From assembly GCA_963666425.2 (NCBI GenBank), contig OY762825.2, positions 32,001 to 96,000 on the forward strand: a stretch of 64,000 bases of DNA. The letters run 5' to 3'. Every line of letters starts with the position of its first letter. The stretch's first letter is position 1. Shown here piece by piece: positions 39,087-64,000 of the stretch. The notes beneath the pieces are model-generated. The model was not told the DNA's origin, searched no databases, and worked only from the letters and a program-made list of their open reading frames with translations. Source of the DNA: Bacillota bacterium (GTDB taxonomy: Bacteria; Bacillota; JAAYKD01). A program made the translations under genes and the position numbers.

Positions 39087-39755
39087 ACGCGGAACGGTCA
39101 AGACCGTTCCCTACCTTGCGTTATTTTGATTAATTAACAGGACGAATTAATTGAAAAGAATTAAGTGCGGAACGATTGAGAATGTTATGCAGTTGCGCGT
39201 AGGTAGGTTAACTCCGTACGAAAGAATGGCACGTTAAGTCGGAGAACGCGGAACGGTCAAGACCGTTCCCTACCTTGCGCATTGGTAAGGATTGAATAGG
39301 TTGAATCAATTAGTAAGAGTGAAGTACGGAACGGTTGAGAATGTTATGCAGTTGCGCGTAGGTAGGTTAACTCCGTACGAAAGAATGGCACGTTAAGTCG
39401 GAGAACGCGGAACGGTCAAGATCGTTCCCTACCTTGCGCATTGGTAAGGATTGAATAGGTTGAATCAATTAGTAAGAGTAAAGTACGGAACGATTGAGAA
39501 TGTTATGCAGTTGCGCGTAGTTAGGTTAACTCCGTAAGAAAGAATGGCACGTTAAGTCGGAGAACGCGGAACGGTCAAGATCGTTCCCTACCTTGCGCAT
39601 TGGTAAGGATTGAATAGGTTGAATCAATTAGTAAGAGTGAAGTACGGAACGGTTGAGAATGTTATGCAGATGCGCATAGTTAGGTTAACTCCGTAAGAAA
39701 GAATGCACGTTAATTTGGAGAACGCGGAACGGTCAAGACCGTTCCCTACCTTGCG
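39087..39755. repeat. Tandem array of 159-bp units, each starting with a GTAG-type REP hairpin (BIME-like)
   Basis: Units start at 39087, 39246, 39405, 39564 and 39722; each contains GGAACGGTC-AA-GA(C/T)CGTTCC-CTAC. Confidence 0.95.
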
Positions 39756-59948: not shown

Positions 59949-60145
59949 CTGCAGAGCACCTTGATTCCTGTTCAGTTTAGAAAATAGCTGCATGGCACCT
60001 TGATTCCTGTTCAGTCTAGAAAACAGCTGCATGGCACTCTAATTCCCGTTCGATCAATAAAATAGCTGCATCGCACTCTAATTCCCGTTCGATCGATAAA
60101 ATAGCTGCATCGCACTCTGATTCCCGTTCAGTCAGTAAAATAGCT
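59909..60145 (+). repeat. Six tandem 39-bp copies of the deoB 3' end
   Basis: Unit GCTGCATGGCACCTTGATTCCTGTTCAGTCTAGAAAATA, starting at 59909, 59948, 59987, 60026, 60065 and 60104. Confidence 0.95.
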
Positions 60146-60146
60146 T

Positions 60147-60182
60147 AAAAAGGCGGTACTTCGTGTGGAAGTACTGCCTTTT
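60147..60182. terminator. Terminator hairpin after the deoB repeats
   Basis: AAAAGGCGGTACTTC-gtgtg-GAAGTACTGCCTTTT. Confidence 0.8.
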
Positions 60183-60234
60183 GATTTGGTTGATTCGATT
60201 TTGTCACGTTTGCACCATTGTGGTTTGATTTGTA

Positions 60235-60800
60235 TATAAAACTTCAACGTTACAATAATGATATGCTGTGTTGATAAATTTATGGCGAAAATGTAGGGAA
60301 CGGTCTTGACCGTTCCGCCGTAACAATTCACCATTCCGTTGTAGATTTTTACTATTCCAATGTGATAATTCCATCGCGGTTTAGTTTGCACTTAACACTT
60401 CAACGTTGCAAGAATGAAATGCAGTGTTGATCGCTATGTTGCGGAACGGTCAAGACCGTTCCCTACAACTGTTCCAATGTGAATGTTGATCATTACAATG
60501 TGAATCGTTACGGTATGGAATTACCGTTTCGGCGTGGTTTGTACTTAACACTTCAATGATGCGATAATGTTGGATTGATTATTGTATTACAGCGTGGTTT
60601 GCACTTAACACTTCAACGTTGCAAGAATGATATGCAGTGTTGATAAATTTATGGCGAAAATGTAGGGAACGGTCTTGACCGTTCCGCCGTAACAATTCAC
60701 CCTTCCAATGTGAAAATTCCATCGCGGTTTAGTTTGCACTTAACACTTCAACGTTACAATAATGATATGCTGTGTTGATAAATTTATGGCGAAAATGTAG
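60235..60800. repeat. REP mosaic (GTAG-type REP plus shared linkers), left part
   Basis: GTAGGGAACGGTCTTGACCGTTCC at 60293 (+), 60443 (-) and 60662 (+), interrupted copy at 60797; recurring linker CTTAACACTTCAACGTTRCAA..TGTTGAT. Confidence 0.9.
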
Positions 60801-60833
60801 CCAGCTATCAAACGTCAAGTGGCAAAACGAAAA

Positions 60834-62006
60834 TTATATTCTGGGAACATAAGGCTTTTTATCCCTTAAAACAGCAAAAACAATGTTGCATAATTTATGT
60901 GTAACAGCTCCAATTGCCGTCATATAATCTTTTCCTTCGTCGCGTTTCTTCTGGTAAAAAGCAGACATGACCGGATCTTTTTGCGCGGCAACCGTTGCGG
61001 CATTCCAGAGCGCTCTGCGCAGATAAGGTGAGCCTCGCTTCGACATCGTGTTGTGCGTTGAAGTGAAATTACCGGATTGCTTAATCGAAGGGTCAATACC
61101 GGCAAATGCCGCCAGTTTCTTTGGATTTTCGAAATTATCAATATTGCCGATTTCCGAGTAGATCACCGCAGCCGAGGTGACTCCAACACCAATAATGGTA
61201 TCCAGATAGCATTCACATTGGGAATAGATCTGCTCAATCTTATTCTCAATTGCGTCAATCTGTTCTTCAATGAATTGAATCAGATCCACGGTTTGGTGTA
61301 ATTCAAAGCATAGAGCAGCGTTCGCTCTATTCACACCAACAGTGTGTCTGCAGGCGCTGCGGATCTCCAGCGCTTTTTCCTCACCGAAACTGCCGCGGGA
61401 ATGCTTCGCTAAAAAATCAGCCAACCGCTTTGTGCCGAGCTTCAGAATGGCATCCGGTGACGGATACTTGCTGAGCAACTCCAGCGAAGTTTTACCGAAA
61501 ATATTGGAAAACAGCTTGTGATATTCCGGAAAAAGGTGATCCAGCACGCCAATTACATGGTTTTTGTGCTTTGCAATCTCATCAACCAGAGAACAGCGGA
61601 AACGGCATAACTCGCGTAAATTCTGGACATCCTCCGTTTGTACCGCTACGTCGGAATAACGTCCCATGCGGATCACATCCGCGATATAACCGCAATCCAC
61701 CGTATCCGTCTTGGTTTTACGGACAGACATGCGCCGTATGGCGTCGGTGAGCAGGGGATTGACCACATGCAATTCAATTCCTAAATCGAGTAAAACACAA
61801 TAAAAATTCAGCCAGTAATGACCGGTGGCTTCCATGCCGACGCAAATTGCATCTTGCTTTTGGTAAAGAGCGACCTTCTGCAAAAACAATTGAAAGCCCT
61901 CTTCGGAATTTTCAAATGCAAACGAGGGAGCCAGCGCTTGACCACTGGCGTCCACCGCGATCGCCTGGTGACGGAATTTACCGATGTCTACGCCAAAAGT
62001 AATCAT
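60834..62006 (-). CDS. IS110 transposase/recombinase (DEDD RuvC-like plus Tnp20)
   Basis: GVDIGK, MEATGHY, KTD..D, AFAGIDP..QSG and YLRRAL motifs. Confidence 0.96.
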   Translation of the reverse strand: MITFGVDIGKFRHQAIAVDASGQALAPSFAFENSEEGFQLFLQKVALYQKQDAICVGMEATGHYWLNFYCVLLDLGIELHVVNPLLTDAIRRMSVRKTKTDTVDCGYIADVIRMGRYSDVAVQTEDVQNLRELCRFRCSLVDEIAKHKNHVIGVLDHLFPEYHKLFSNIFGKTSLELLSKYPSPDAILKLGTKRLADFLAKHSRGSFGEEKALEIRSACRHTVGVNRANAALCFELHQTVDLIQFIEEQIDAIENKIEQIYSQCECYLDTIIGVGVTSAAVIYSEIGNIDNFENPKKLAAFAGIDPSIKQSGNFTSTHNTMSKRGSPYLRRALWNAATVAAQKDPVMSAFYQKKRDEGKDYMTAIGAVTHKLCNIVFAVLRDKKPYVPRI

Positions 62007-62049
62007 TTACAGCAACTCCTCAAACTGGAATGCGGCAAAGGATGATCTC

Positions 62050-62192
62050 TCTGACGCTGACAGTTGCAACCTCGCGTGAAATACAAGGATTTTACCCTAT
62101 CCAGCCAATACGCAGATTTCTGTCAGATCAGAGGCAACACTCTACATCACAGGAACGATTCCCAGGGAACAGTACGTTGACCTCTGCCTGAC
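62050..62192 (-). ncRNA. Predicted IS110 bridge RNA (target- and donor-binding loops; ends approximate)
   Basis: ACTGTTCCCT and ATGTAG match the REP target; TTGGCT and GCGAG match the IS circle junction; each pair flanks an inner hairpin. Confidence 0.75.
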
Positions 62193-62298
62193 AAAATTAT
62201 ACCACAAAGGGCAAACCCCTTGGATACTTAAAGAGTGGCTTTGGCTCGCTTCCTGTACCCTGTAAATGAGTTACCTTGGCACTACTAGTATATACGAG

Positions 62299-62820
62299 GG
62301 AACGGTCTTGACCGTTCCGCCGTAACAATTCACCATTCCAATGTGAAAATTCCATCGCGGTTTAGTTTGCACTGAATATTTCAACGTTGCAAGAATATTA
62401 GGTTGTCTTGATCGCTATATTGCGGAACGGTCAAGACCGTTCCCTACAACTGTTCCAATGTGAATGTTGATCATTACAATGTGAATGTTGATCATTACAA
62501 TGTGAATCGTTACGGTATGGAATTACCGTTTCGGCGTGGTTTGCACTTAACACTTCAACGTTGCAATAATGAAATGCAGTGTTGATCGCTATGTTGCGGA
62601 ATGGTCAAGACCGTTCCCTACAACTGTTCCAATGTGAATGTTGATCATTACAATGTGGATCGTTACGGTATGGAATTACCGTTTCGGCGTGGTTTGTACT
62701 TATCGCTTCGATGATGCGATAATGTTGGATTGATTTTTGCATTACAGCGTGGTTTGCACTTAACACTTCAACGTTGCAATAATGAAATGCAGTGTTAATA
62801 AATTTATGGCAGAAATGTAG
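62299..62820. repeat. REP mosaic between the two IS110 copies
   Basis: REP remainder at 62299, reverse REPs at 62424 and 62598, interrupted REP at 62817; same linkers as 60235-60800. Confidence 0.9.
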
Positions 62821-64000
62821 CCAGCTATCAAACGTCAAGTGGCAAAACGAAAATTATATTCTGGGAACATAAGGCTTTTTATCCCTTAAAACAGCAAAAA
62901 CAATGTTGCATAATTTATGTGTAACAGCTCCAATTGCCGTCATATAATCTTTTCCTTCGTCGCGTTTCTTCTGGTAAAAAGCAGACATGACCGGATCTTT
63001 TTGCGCGGCAACCGTTGCGGCATTCCAGAGCGCTCTGCGCAGATAAGGTGAGCCTCGCTTCGACATCGTGTTGTGCGTTGAAGTGAAATTACCGGATTGC
63101 TTAATCGAAGGGTCAATACCGGCAAATGCCGCCAGTTTCTTTGGATTTTCGAAATTATCAATATTGCCGATTTCCGAGTAGATCACCGCAGCCGAGGTGA
63201 CTCCAACACCAATAATGGTATCCAGATAGCATTCACATTGGGAATAGATCTGCTCAATCTTTTTTTCAATTGCGTCAATCTGTTCTTCAATGAATTGAAT
63301 CAGCTCCACGGTTTGGTGTAATTCAAAGCATAGAGCAGCATTCGCTCTATTCACCCCAACTGTGTGTTTGCAGGCGCTGCGGATCTCCAGCGCTTTTTCC
63401 TCACCGAAACTGCCGCGGGAATGCTTCGCTAAAAAATCAGCCAACCGCTTTGTGCCGAGCTTCAGAATGGCATCCGGTGACGGATACTTGCTGAGCAACT
63501 CCAGCGAAGTTTTACCGAAAATATCTGAAAAAAGCTTGTGATATTCCGGAAAAAGATGATCCAGCACGCCAATTACATGGTTTTTGTGCTTTGCAATCTC
63601 ATCAACCAGAGAACAGCGGAAACGGCATAACTCGCGTAAATTCTGGACATCCTCCGTTTGTACCGCTACGTCGGAATAACGTCCCATGCGGATCACATCC
63701 GCGATATAACCGCAATCCACCGTATCCGTCTTGGTTTTACGGACAGACATGCGCCGTATGGCGTCGGTGAGCAGGGGATTGACCACATGCAATTCAATTC
63801 CTAAATCGAGTAAAACACAATAAAAATTCAGCCAGTAATGACCGGTGGCTTCCATGCCGACGCAAATTGCATCTTGCTTTTGGTAAAGAGCGACCTTCTG
63901 CAAAAACAATTGAAAGCCCTCTTCGGAATTTTCAAATGCAAACGAGGGAGCCAGCGCTTGACCACTGGCGTCCACCGCGATCGCCTGGTGACGGAATTTA
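62821..64000 (-). mobile_element. IS110-family element, copy 2 (runs off window)
   Basis: Same right end CCAGCTATCAAACGTCAAG directly after AAATGTAG; near-identical to copy 1. Confidence 0.93.
62854..64000 (-). CDS. IS110 transposase, copy 2 (5' end beyond window)
   Basis: Four amino-acid differences from copy 1 in the visible part (N/D, R/K, D/E, N/K). Confidence 0.95.
   Translation of the reverse strand, partial: KFRHQAIAVDASGQALAPSFAFENSEEGFQLFLQKVALYQKQDAICVGMEATGHYWLNFYCVLLDLGIELHVVNPLLTDAIRRMSVRKTKTDTVDCGYIADVIRMGRYSDVAVQTEDVQNLRELCRFRCSLVDEIAKHKNHVIGVLDHLFPEYHKLFSDIFGKTSLELLSKYPSPDAILKLGTKRLADFLAKHSRGSFGEEKALEIRSACKHTVGVNRANAALCFELHQTVELIQFIEEQIDAIEKKIEQIYSQCECYLDTIIGVGVTSAAVIYSEIGNIDNFENPKKLAAFAGIDPSIKQSGNFTSTHNTMSKRGSPYLRRALWNAATVAAQKDPVMSAFYQKKRDEGKDYMTAIGAVTHKLCNIVFAVLRDKKPYVPRI

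What the first reader, a model, noticed from the sequence alone, without database searches (positions are those of the whole stretch)
62050..62192. Readable IS110 bridge RNA programmed against a Firmicutes GTAG-REP
Seen: the 290-nt non-coding end upstream of the transposase (minus strand) contains GAGGTCAAC-gt-ACTGTTCCCT-[GGGAAtcgTTCCT]-gtg-ATGTAG-agt-GTTGCCTC. ACTGTTCCCT (62164-62173) matches the left target plus core ACCGTTCCCT at 9/10 (one U:G wobble). ATGTAG (62142-62147) is the exact complement of core plus right target CTACAT. A second loop has TTGGCT (62103-62108), a GGAT/ATCC stem, then GTATTT and GCGAG (62071-62075). These match the circle junction CTGG-CT-CGT with one wobble each. 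Known: IS621 bridge RNAs use this two-loop layout with a CT core and target E. coli REPs. Inference: this is a natural RNA-guided recombinase from a distant lineage, with its own guides and possibly reprogrammable.
Basis: partly seen in the sequence, partly recalled or inferred. Interest (0 to 1): 0.88.

Follow-up and report, generated by a model that had tools for sequence, protein, structure and literature searches.

The report
Bridge RNA of a REP-targeting IS110
The non-coding left end of this insertion sequence encodes a two-loop guide RNA of the known IS110 "bridge RNA" kind, and its guides match the repeated hairpin sequence into which all ten genomic copies are inserted, so it is a well-supported but ordinary new member of a known family.

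Summary
They belong to a 1,496-bp IS110-family element (window 62296-60801, minus strand). It has 10 copies in the genome, each inserted at a CT core at the 3' foot of one REP hairpin.

The target-binding loop reading is right. ACUGUUCCCU matches the left target plus core, and AUGUAG is complementary to the core plus right target. That layout arose in 6 of 100,000 shuffles.

In 71 homologous elements the stems covary. The guides also covary with the element's flanks and ends.

Two corrections to the donor loop:
- The conserved hairpin is AGGG/UCCU, not GGAT/ATCC.

One copy carries LTG U-to-C, an exact match to the majority target.

Expression is not shown, and the host phylum is not established.

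Bridge RNAs are already known to be general in IS110, including a tested element from Caloranaerobacter azorensis. Verdict: new member of a known kind, moderate-low interest. In passing: most relatives target Shine-Dalgarno sites.

The parts
62299..62318 (-). REP hairpin of the target (GGAACGGTC-AA-GACCGTTCC). Its 3' arm is the left target.
   Evidence: About 130 such hairpins in the genome: 118 followed by CTAC (empty sites), 10 by the element.
62297..62298 (-). Left copy of the CT core.
   Evidence: CT bounds all 10 copies on both sides.
62007..62296 (-). Left non-coding end (LE, 290 nt) that encodes the bridge RNA.
62289..62294 (-). -10-like hexamer TATATA at LE positions 3-8. With TTGACG in the right end it would form a junction promoter (16-nt spacer) in the circular form.
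   Evidence: Read. Homologues have TTGACT-N17-TATAAT across the same junction. Function not tested.
62199..62227 (-). 5' stem-loop. Its 3' strand overlaps a conserved TGnTATAAT-like motif (TG 62204-62203, hexamer 62201-62196).
62130..62185 (-). Target-binding loop: stem AGAGG-U-CAACG / UGUUG-CCUCU enclosing the guides and a small hairpin (62163-62151).
62164..62173 (-). Left target guide ACUGUUCCCU, same sense as the left target plus CT.
   Evidence: In copy G000:C1:706181-707689 position 62171 is C.
62142..62148 (-). Right target guide GAUGUAG, complementary to CT+ACAT(T/C). It is followed by the handshake positions AG (62141-62140).
62057..62126 (-). Donor-binding loop: outer stem CUGACAG/CUGUCAG, inner stem UGC/GCA, hairpin AGGG-UAAAA-UCCU (62098-62086).
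   Evidence: The single-sequence MFE prefers another fold.
62101..62107 (-). Left donor guide UGGCUGG, same sense as TAGCTGG at the right end (one G:T wobble), followed by AU (62100-62099).
   Evidence: the register is fixed by covariation in 63 of 64 homologues.
62071..62082 (-). Split right donor guide: AU (62082-62081) and GCGAG (62075-62071), pairing CT-CG-T-AT at the LE start. It is followed by handshake GU (62070-62069).
60834..62006 (-). IS110-family recombinase gene, 390 aa.
60801..60833 (-). Right non-coding end (33 nt) with the -35-like TTGACG (60818-60813) and the left donor TAGCTGG (60807-60801).
60794..60800 (-). Right copy of the CT core (60800-60799) and the right target ACATT.
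62821..64000 (-). Second copy of the same element. It runs off the window, so its left end lies outside it.

Best explanation
The region is the bridge-RNA gene of an active-looking IS110-group insertion sequence.

The RNA, about 170 nt, comprises a 5' stem-loop, a target-binding loop and a donor-binding loop.
[quoted passage not shown] The DEDD/Ser recombinase bound to this RNA would recombine the circular RE-LE junction with an empty REP at the CT core.

Shown here: the anatomy, the ten identical insertion sites, the stem covariation and the guide-to-DNA covariation.

Inferred from IS621 and CazIS110-1: RNA expression, protein binding, catalysis and reprogrammability.
For: Protein:
- Pfam DEDD_Tnp_IS110 (1.5e-40) and Transposase_20 (8.1e-26).
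- NCBIfam NF033542 'IS110 family RNA-guided transposase', 261.9 bits against a cut-off of 140.
- PDB hits IS621 and ISCro4 at about E 1e-20, with the acidic residues and the SG serine aligned.

Element:
- 10 of 10 copies are 1,496 bp with intact 390-aa ORFs. All sit at CT after the same hairpin and in the same orientation.
- LE is 290 nt and RE 33 nt, with an ATA...TAT short inverted repeat around the donor.

Structure, on 72 sequences:
- RNAalifold predicts 16 pairs, 14 with compensatory changes.
- A 24-pair manual structure has 89.8% of cells paired, against 71.1% in shuffles. Its covariation score is 0.572 against 0.222 (0 of 500 shuffles reach it) and 0.07-0.14 when partners are slid.

Guides:
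- LTG against the left flank: 5.0 of 7 matches in 54 unique pairs, against 3.49 +/- 0.14 permuted (0 of 10,000).
- RTG against the right flank: 3.32 of 5 in 59 pairs, against 1.71 +/- 0.13 (0 of 10,000).
- LDG hexamer equals the RE tip in 63 of 64 loci, over three variants.
- RDG matches the LE start over five positions in 58 of 60 loci, with a G:T wobble in the other 2, over five dinucleotide variants.

Other:
- Within this genome one copy has LTG U-to-C, making an exact match to the majority target.
- Near-identical recombinases in relatives carry different guides.
- The window layout arose by chance in 6 of 100,000 shuffles.
Against: - No transcript is shown. The only RNA-library evidence is two contigs from one metatranscriptome (61812-62078 and 62110-62320). 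One runs into the flank, and DNA carry-over cannot be excluded.
- Rfam has no matching family.
- The free-RNA MFE does not form the donor loop. The consensus fold is 8-12 kcal/mol above the MFE, and LTG/RTG, LDG and RDG are about half or more paired in the ensemble.
- The window's own copy has A at 62064 where the nine others have G, which loses one pair of the donor-loop inner stem.
- The LDG does not cover the core C as it does in IS621.
- The TBL handshake A faces G at donor position 7.
- 3 of 10 sites (ACCT) have an RTG mismatch.
- The permutation tests do not remove relatedness among loci. Three LE starts were hand-corrected, and the LE start of L040 was picked automatically from two candidates; for L040, L062 and L083 the start used agrees with the RDG, so those three are not independent for the RDG count.
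Confidence: 0.88

Rival explanations
1. The left end is only a promoter and 5' UTR that regulates recombinase expression, as described for the ISPpu9 5' UTR and its small RNAs. On this view the target-like strings are footprints or chance.
For: The region lies directly upstream of the ORF and its GAGGAG ribosome site (62021-62016). Alternative pairings exist between the segment 5' of the target loop, the donor-loop 5' strand and a region 3' of the donor loop. The search listing for the ISPpu9 paper shows such regulation exists in the family (abstract only).
Against: A footprint or chance origin does not explain why the guides change together with the flanks across 54-59 independent guide/flank pairs. 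It also does not explain why the donor guides track three RE-tip and five LE-tip variants, or the 6-in-100,000 layout test. A regulatory role is not exclusive of guiding.
Confidence: 0.03
2. The family uses a bridge RNA, but the window's own copy is impaired. It has A at 62064 and a competing extended target-loop stem, so it depends on RNA made by the other nine copies in trans, or acts mainly through a target-loop-only RNA.
For: Nine of ten copies have G at 62064, which restores a C:G pair. With that G the constrained consensus fold gains 3.7 kcal/mol (-54.4 against -50.7). [quoted passage not shown]
Against: Only one base pair in a three-tier stem is lost. The ORF is intact. All the guides of this copy are identical to those of eight other copies.
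Confidence: 0.07
3. One reading: TTGGCT (62108-62103) pairs CTGGCT including the core, closed by a GGAT/ATCC stem.
For: In this element alone the match is 5 of 6 plus a wobble and includes the CT core, as the LDG of IS621 includes the core C.
Against: In homologues the same register gives about 3 of 5 by my reading of the rows (no call computed this), while the shifted register gives an identical hexamer in 63 of 64 loci with covariation. The aligned hairpin in the family starts after AU.
Confidence: 0.05

Closest known systems
IS621 of E. coli and its 177-nt bridge RNA (Durrant 2024, PMC11208160; Hiraizumi 2024, PMC11208158; passages read)
   Same: - DEDD plus Ser recombinase, long LE, short RE and a CT core.
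- Inserts into REP elements.
- RNA order: 5' stem-loop, then target loop, then donor loop.
- LTG is same-sense and includes the core. RTG is complementary and includes the core.
- Split RDG with a G:T wobble at donor position 12 and AU pairing positions 13-14.
- GU handshake after the RDG, AU after the LDG, and T-A-T at donor positions 12-14.
   Different: - The protein is only distantly related (E 1e-20, matches mainly in the C-terminal domain).
- The LE start is about 110 nt from the target loop.
- There is no linker base between the LTG and its hairpin.
- The RTG is naturally 6-7 nt.
- The RDG spacer is 3 nt longer.
- The LDG stops before the core.
- The TBL handshake is AG.
CazIS110-1 of Caloranaerobacter azorensis (bioRxiv 10.1101/2025.10.25.684509; passages read)
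   Same: An IS110 element with 10 genomic copies and a two-loop bridge RNA. I recall the host as a Firmicute; no call checked this. It was shown active in vitro and in E. coli.
   Different: Its sequence could not be compared here, so whether it belongs to the same clade is unknown. Its target is not given in the passages I read.
ISPpu10 and ISPpu9 of Pseudomonas putida (bioRxiv 10.64898/2026.03.19.712850, abstract; PMC12288879, listing)
   Same: IS110 elements that insert next to a REP or intergenic stem-loop. For ISPpu10 the target-encoded stem-loop adds specificity. Here the left target is itself the 3' arm of the REP hairpin.
   Different: Different phylum and different guides. A role of the hairpin in recognition was not tested here.
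IS1111-group elements and seekRNA (Siddiquee 2024, PMC11187229; listing only)
   Same: Same recombinase family and the same principle of RNA-guided target choice.
   Different: IS1111 elements carry the RNA in a long RE and have long subterminal inverted repeats. Here the RNA is in the LE and the repeat is 3 bp.

Membership tests
IS110 family, IS110 group (bridge recombinase elements) | [quoted passage not shown] | tested here: met
   both domains full length. NF033542 equivalog, 261.9 bits against a cut-off of 140.
IS110 family, IS110 group (bridge recombinase elements) | Catalytic acidic residues and the conserved serine | tested here: met
   GVDIGK, GMEATG and KTDTVD align with the matching motifs of IS621 and ISCro4. 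The S of KQSGNF aligns with the ESG serine of IS621 (S241, if the chain numbering is offset by 2).
IS110 family, IS110 group (bridge recombinase elements) | Site-specific insertion at a 2-nt core present at both junctions, with no long terminal inverted repeats | tested here: met
   CT at both ends of 10 of 10 copies, all in the same target. Only ATA/TAT flanks the donor.
IS110 family, IS110 group (bridge recombinase elements) | LE much longer than RE (the IS1111 group is the reverse) | tested here: met
   LE 290 nt, RE 33 nt.
IS110 family, IS110 group (bridge recombinase elements) | [quoted passage not shown] | tested here: inconclusive
   TTGACG, a 16-nt spacer and TATATA can be read across the junction. 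Homologues have TTGACT-N17-TATAAT. No circle and no transcript was observed.
Bridge RNA | Two internal loops closed by stems that are conserved with compensatory changes | tested here: met
Bridge RNA | LTG same sense as left target plus core; RTG complementary to core plus right target; both covary with the flanks | tested here: met
   Window. Family.
Bridge RNA | LDG and RDG match the RE tip and the LE tip | tested here: met
   63 of 64 loci for the LDG and 58 of 60 (+2 wobble) for the RDG. In the window each has one wobble.
Bridge RNA | LDG pairing extends into the core, as in IS621 (A123-C130 reaches the core C) | tested here: not met
   The LDG is followed by AU opposite CT. 62 of 64 homologues also have an extra T between the LDG match and the core. 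This is a variant of the layout, not grounds to exclude membership.
Bridge RNA | The RNA is made, binds the recombinase and dictates recombination specificity | not testable with these tools
   Only two contigs of one metatranscriptome cover parts of the LE.
REP (repetitive extragenic palindrome) as the target | Short imperfect palindrome in many clustered copies, with a GTAG-type tail and an associated Y1 (RAYT-like) transposase | tested here: met
   About 130 hairpins; 61 of 91 gaps on C1 are under 400 nt; 118 have CTAC (= GTAG on the other strand). One of 3 Y1_Tnp matches (C1:533030-533401) has the hairpin on both sides. Extragenic location was not checked. The link between REPs and RAYTs is recalled.

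The most novel reading that the evidence does not exclude
This element is a naturally re-programmed offshoot of a Bacillota-wide IS110 clade. In most members the left target guide is anti-Shine-Dalgarno-like (...CCUCCU), so they insert inside the ribosome-binding sites of genes. The guide was switched to REP-type hairpins at least three separate times, while the donor loop stayed fixed. In addition, a three-way alternative pairing around the donor-loop stem, together with a conserved TGnTATAAT-like motif just 5' of the target loop, may let integrated copies make and gate their own bridge RNA. That would differ from IS621, which depends on read-through transcription.
Probability: 0.3. Interest if true: 0.6.

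Novelty: new member of a known kind. Interest (0 to 1): 0.35.

Why it matters
It adds a fully readable natural bridge RNA, with all four guides, both substrates and about 118 empty genomic targets, from a lineage far from IS621.

It also shows a guide polymorphism within one genome (U/C at 62171) that mirrors a C/T polymorphism in the target. In relatives, near-identical recombinases carry different guides. This is natural evidence for programmability.

It shows that the donor-loop geometry (no core pairing by the LDG, a longer RDG spacer) can differ from IS621, which bears on designing scaffolds from other orthologues.

It does not change what is known. Bridge RNAs are already regarded as general in IS110, NCBI names this protein family 'RNA-guided transposase', and an element from Caloranaerobacter azorensis has been tested.

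Tried and rejected
- Rfam, at E-value threshold, over 60000-64000: no bridge-RNA family. The only row is IS128 at 62735-62966, 20.3 bits against a gathering score of 80, E 0.57, taken as chance.
- Two-hexamer promoter scan: no minus-strand site in the LE.
- An internal promoter was considered because a -10-like hexamer is conserved in 60 of 60 sequences, with TG in 53 of 60. The same bases form the 3' strand of a covarying hairpin, so a 5' stem-loop explains them. I leave the promoter open.
- Reads: all runs are contigs. The RNA-library contigs do not prove transcription. The 'joint' 60798 to 62297 in X1 and X3 (one contig each, sides of 20-21 nt) is indistinguishable from any of the about 118 empty REPs, so it is no evidence of excision. 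No circle junction was seen.
- Single-sequence folding does not recover the donor loop. I rely on the family consensus instead.
- Host phylum: no Spo0A_C match. No tool gave a name, so it is left open.
- Rows dropped:
  - Of the 80 loci, 4 duplicates (L016, L044, L061, L063), 4 with under 212 nt upstream (L023, L046, L064, L071) and L081 (large insertion in the donor-loop hairpin) were left out of alignment A1.
  - L014 was left out of the tree because of an internal stop.
  - The LE starts of L027, L062 and L083 were hand-corrected.
- Supplements of the bridge-RNA papers are closed, so I could not check whether this clade or Shine-Dalgarno targeting is already tabulated there.
- Two literature searches found no paper linking IS110 to Shine-Dalgarno or ribosome-binding-site targeting.

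Full report
**What is there**

On the minus strand the window holds a 1,496-bp element (62296-60801). It has a 290-nt non-coding left end, a 390-aa ORF (62006-60834) and a 33-nt right end.

The ORF carries both IS110 domains. It scores 261.9 bits on NCBIfam NF033542 'IS110 family RNA-guided transposase'. Its only solved relatives are the ISCro4 and IS621 recombinases, at E about 1e-20. The acidic motifs and the SG serine are aligned with them.

The genome holds exactly ten copies, all 1,496 bp and all with open 390-aa frames. A second copy starts at 62821 and runs off the window.

**Target**

All ten copies sit in the same orientation immediately after a hairpin, GGAAC(G/A)GTC-AA-GAC(C/T)GTTCC. 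They are bounded by CT on both sides and followed by AC(A/C)T.

About 130 such hairpins exist in the genome:
- 118 are followed by CTAC, that is, empty sites.
- 10 are followed by the element.
- They are clustered, with a median spacing of 184 nt on C1.
- One Y1-transposase-like frame is flanked by them.

I could not establish the host phylum. The closest relatives of the recombinase are in Bacillota records, but the genome has no Spo0A_C match.

**The observation**

Every string is at the stated coordinates.
- ACUGUUCCCU (62173-62164) equals the left flank plus core at 9 of 10 positions for eight sites. The difference is U opposite a bottom-strand G. It matches at 10 of 10 for the two ACTGTTCC sites.
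- AUGUAG (62147-62142) is the exact complement of CTACAT at seven sites.
- With the preceding G, the guide is 7 nt. It matches CTACATC exactly at one site and CTACATT with a G:T wobble at six.
- Three ACCT sites carry one mismatch.

The combined layout arose in 6 of 100,000 dinucleotide-preserving shuffles of the left end.

**Relatives**

A scan of one genome per species returned 515 confirmed relatives, of which the best 80 (43-64% identity) were kept.

Their ends could be placed from conserved terminal motifs, independently of the target guides. The right end reads TTGAC-N-ATAG(C/T)(C/T)GG(T) before CT. The left end starts NN-TATAAT after CT. Across the circle junction these motifs read as a TTGACT-N17-TATAAT promoter. 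In the window the equivalent is TTGACG-N16-TATATA.

I aligned the 212 nt upstream of the start codon for the window and 71 loci. Nine loci were dropped: 4 duplicates, 4 too short and L081.

Stem support:
- RNAalifold found 16 pairs, 14 with compensatory changes.
- A 24-pair structure that I wrote (target-loop stem and hairpin, donor-loop inner stem and hairpin) has 89.8% of cells paired against 71.1% in shuffles.
- Its covariation score is 0.572 against 0.222 (0 of 500 shuffles reach it) and 0.07-0.14 when the partners are slid.
- The donor-loop outer stem is not aligned consistently by MAFFT. In a cognate versus non-cognate test the best helix is 7.94 against 5.70 +/- 0.17.

**Guides against DNA**

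- Left target guide against left flank, 7 non-core positions, 54 unique pairs from 60 loci: 5.0 matches against 3.49 +/- 0.14 after permutation (0 of 10,000).
- Right target guide against right flank, 5 non-core positions, 59 unique pairs from 64 loci: 3.32 against 1.71 +/- 0.13 (0 of 10,000).
- Donor side: the hexamer before the AU in the donor loop (AGCUGG, AGUUGG or AGCCGG) equals the last hexamer of the right end in 63 of 64 loci. The exception, L018, has the same GGCUGG as the window.
- The right donor guide matches CT plus the first three bases of the left end in 58 of 60 loci, with a G:T wobble in the other 2, over five dinucleotide variants.

Caveats:
- Relatedness among loci is not removed by the permutation.
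- Three left-end starts were hand-corrected.
- For L040, L062 and L083 the start used agrees with the donor guide (hand-corrected for L062 and L083; for L040 picked automatically from two candidates), so these three are not independent for that count.
- Several loci (for example L029, L045, L080, L086) have a left flank that does not fit their guide.

- The family covariation fixes the left donor guide of this element as UGGCUGG (62107-62101). It pairs with the strand opposite TAGCTGG (60807-60801) with one G:T wobble, and it is followed by AU (62100-62099).
- The family hairpin is AGGG-UAAAA-UCCU (62098-62086), not GGAT/ATCC.
- GUAUUU (62084-62079) corresponds, letter for letter by the residue names given in the IS621 structure paper, to the linker G-U, the pairing A-U and two flipped U's.
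- So the right donor guide is split: AU (62082-62081) pairs donor positions 13-14, and GCGAG (62075-62071) pairs positions 12-8. The wobble is at position 12, as in IS621.
- The spacer is 3 nt longer than in IS621.
- Unlike IS621, the left donor guide does not reach the core.
- 62 of 64 relatives have an extra T between the guide match and CT. The window, L012 and L077 lack it.
- In the window (as in L033) the left target guide abuts its hairpin with no linker base.
- A hairpin at 62227-62199 precedes the target loop. It covaries in relatives (6.76 against 5.60 +/- 0.14), which matches the 5' stem-loop of IS621 in position.

**Within-genome variation**

Among 27 variable positions in the ten copies, five lie in the left end.
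- Position 62171 is C in copy C1:706181-707689. This turns the guide into an exact match to the majority target.
- Position 62064 is A only in the window's copy. The G of the other nine copies adds a C:G pair to the donor-loop inner stem.

**What is not shown**

- Expression is not shown. Two contigs of one metatranscriptome cover 61812-62078 and 62110-62320. They are contigs, one runs into the flank, and DNA carry-over cannot be excluded.
- Rfam holds no matching family.
- Free-energy folding of the single sequence prefers an extended target-loop stem that uses the donor loop's 5' strand. The consensus fold is 8-12 kcal/mol higher.
- Cognate versus non-cognate tests give some support for that extension (5.74 against 4.61 +/- 0.13). 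They also support a long-range helix from the same 5' segment to a region 3' of the donor loop (6.42 against 5.13 +/- 0.12). Mutually exclusive folds may therefore exist.
- The conserved TGnTATAAT-like motif may be a promoter, part of the 5' stem-loop, or both. The two-hexamer scan finds nothing there.

**Comparison and novelty**

The layout, the strand rules, the core, the REP target and the short ATA/TAT repeat are those described for IS621.

Durrant et al. predicted bridge RNAs in 85.7% of ISfinder IS110s (passage). CazIS110-1 from Caloranaerobacter azorensis has been shown active with its predicted bridge RNA (passages). ISPpu10 shows that a target stem-loop can add specificity (abstract).

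This is therefore a new member of a known kind, with a variant donor-loop geometry.

**Seen in passing**

- 37 of 48 unique left target guides in the relatives end in ...TCCT or ...TCCA, and 18 of them end in CCTCCT or CCTCCA.
- 23 of 56 unique left flanks end in CCTCCT.
- 33 of 57 unique left flanks read, on the other strand, as AGGAGG-like plus a start codon and an ORF of at least 60 codons leading away from the element. The rate at control positions is 14% of 2,200.
- Most of the clade thus appears to insert into Shine-Dalgarno sites.
- On a FastTree of 75 recombinases, the REP-type guides (window; L022/L024; L033) need at least three changes. Near-identical proteins carry different guides (quick tree, midpoint root only).
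- Two searches found no paper on this. The supplements are closed.

Noticed in passing
Loci L013-L091 (left flanks), e.g. L016, L017, L035, L041: Most relatives have an anti-Shine-Dalgarno-like left target guide (...CCUCCU). They sit inside an AGGAGG-like site 5-18 nt upstream of a start codon that reads away from the left end. This holds for 33 of 57 unique flanks, against 14% at control positions. REP-type targets (window, L022/L024, L033) are the minority and are scattered on the tree.
   Followed up: partly
G000:C1 92790-96320, 706181-709497, 1537834-1541612, 1590165-1593368: Eight of the ten copies lie as four same-orientation pairs about 190-770 bp apart, inside REP arrays. Only two copies are single.
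   Followed up: no
window 62195-62186, 62126-62120, 62063-62057 and about 62035-62025: The segment just 5' of the target loop can pair either with the donor loop's 5' strand or with a region 3' of the donor loop. Both pairings score above non-cognate controls across the family, which suggests mutually exclusive folds.
   Followed up: partly
G000:C1:533030-533401: A Y1_Tnp (RAYT-like) frame of 233 aa, 28.6 bits, has the REP hairpin on both sides (at 532747 and 533984). The two stronger Y1_Tnp matches have none within 1.5 kb.
   Followed up: partly
L030, L031, L043-L045, L074, L087, L090, L091: In these loci the left target guide ends in A-U where the flank core is C-T. The first core position is therefore unpaired in the target loop, as it is in the donor loop of the whole clade.
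   Followed up: no
L029, L045, L054, L070, L080, L086, L088: The left flank does not fit the element's own left target guide, while the right flank partly does. Possible causes are rearrangement, half-matched insertion or MAG chimeras.
   Followed up: no
L081 (donor-loop hairpin); L030, L031, L043-L045 (left end): L081 has an insertion of about 90 nt in the donor-loop hairpin. The other loci have 85-100 extra nt between the left-end start and the 5' stem-loop.
   Followed up: no
window 60300-62700: The REP hairpins lie within longer composite repeat units of about 150-200 nt, in both orientations (BIME-like arrays). Other REP hairpins in the window are at 39091, 39250 and 39726.
   Followed up: no
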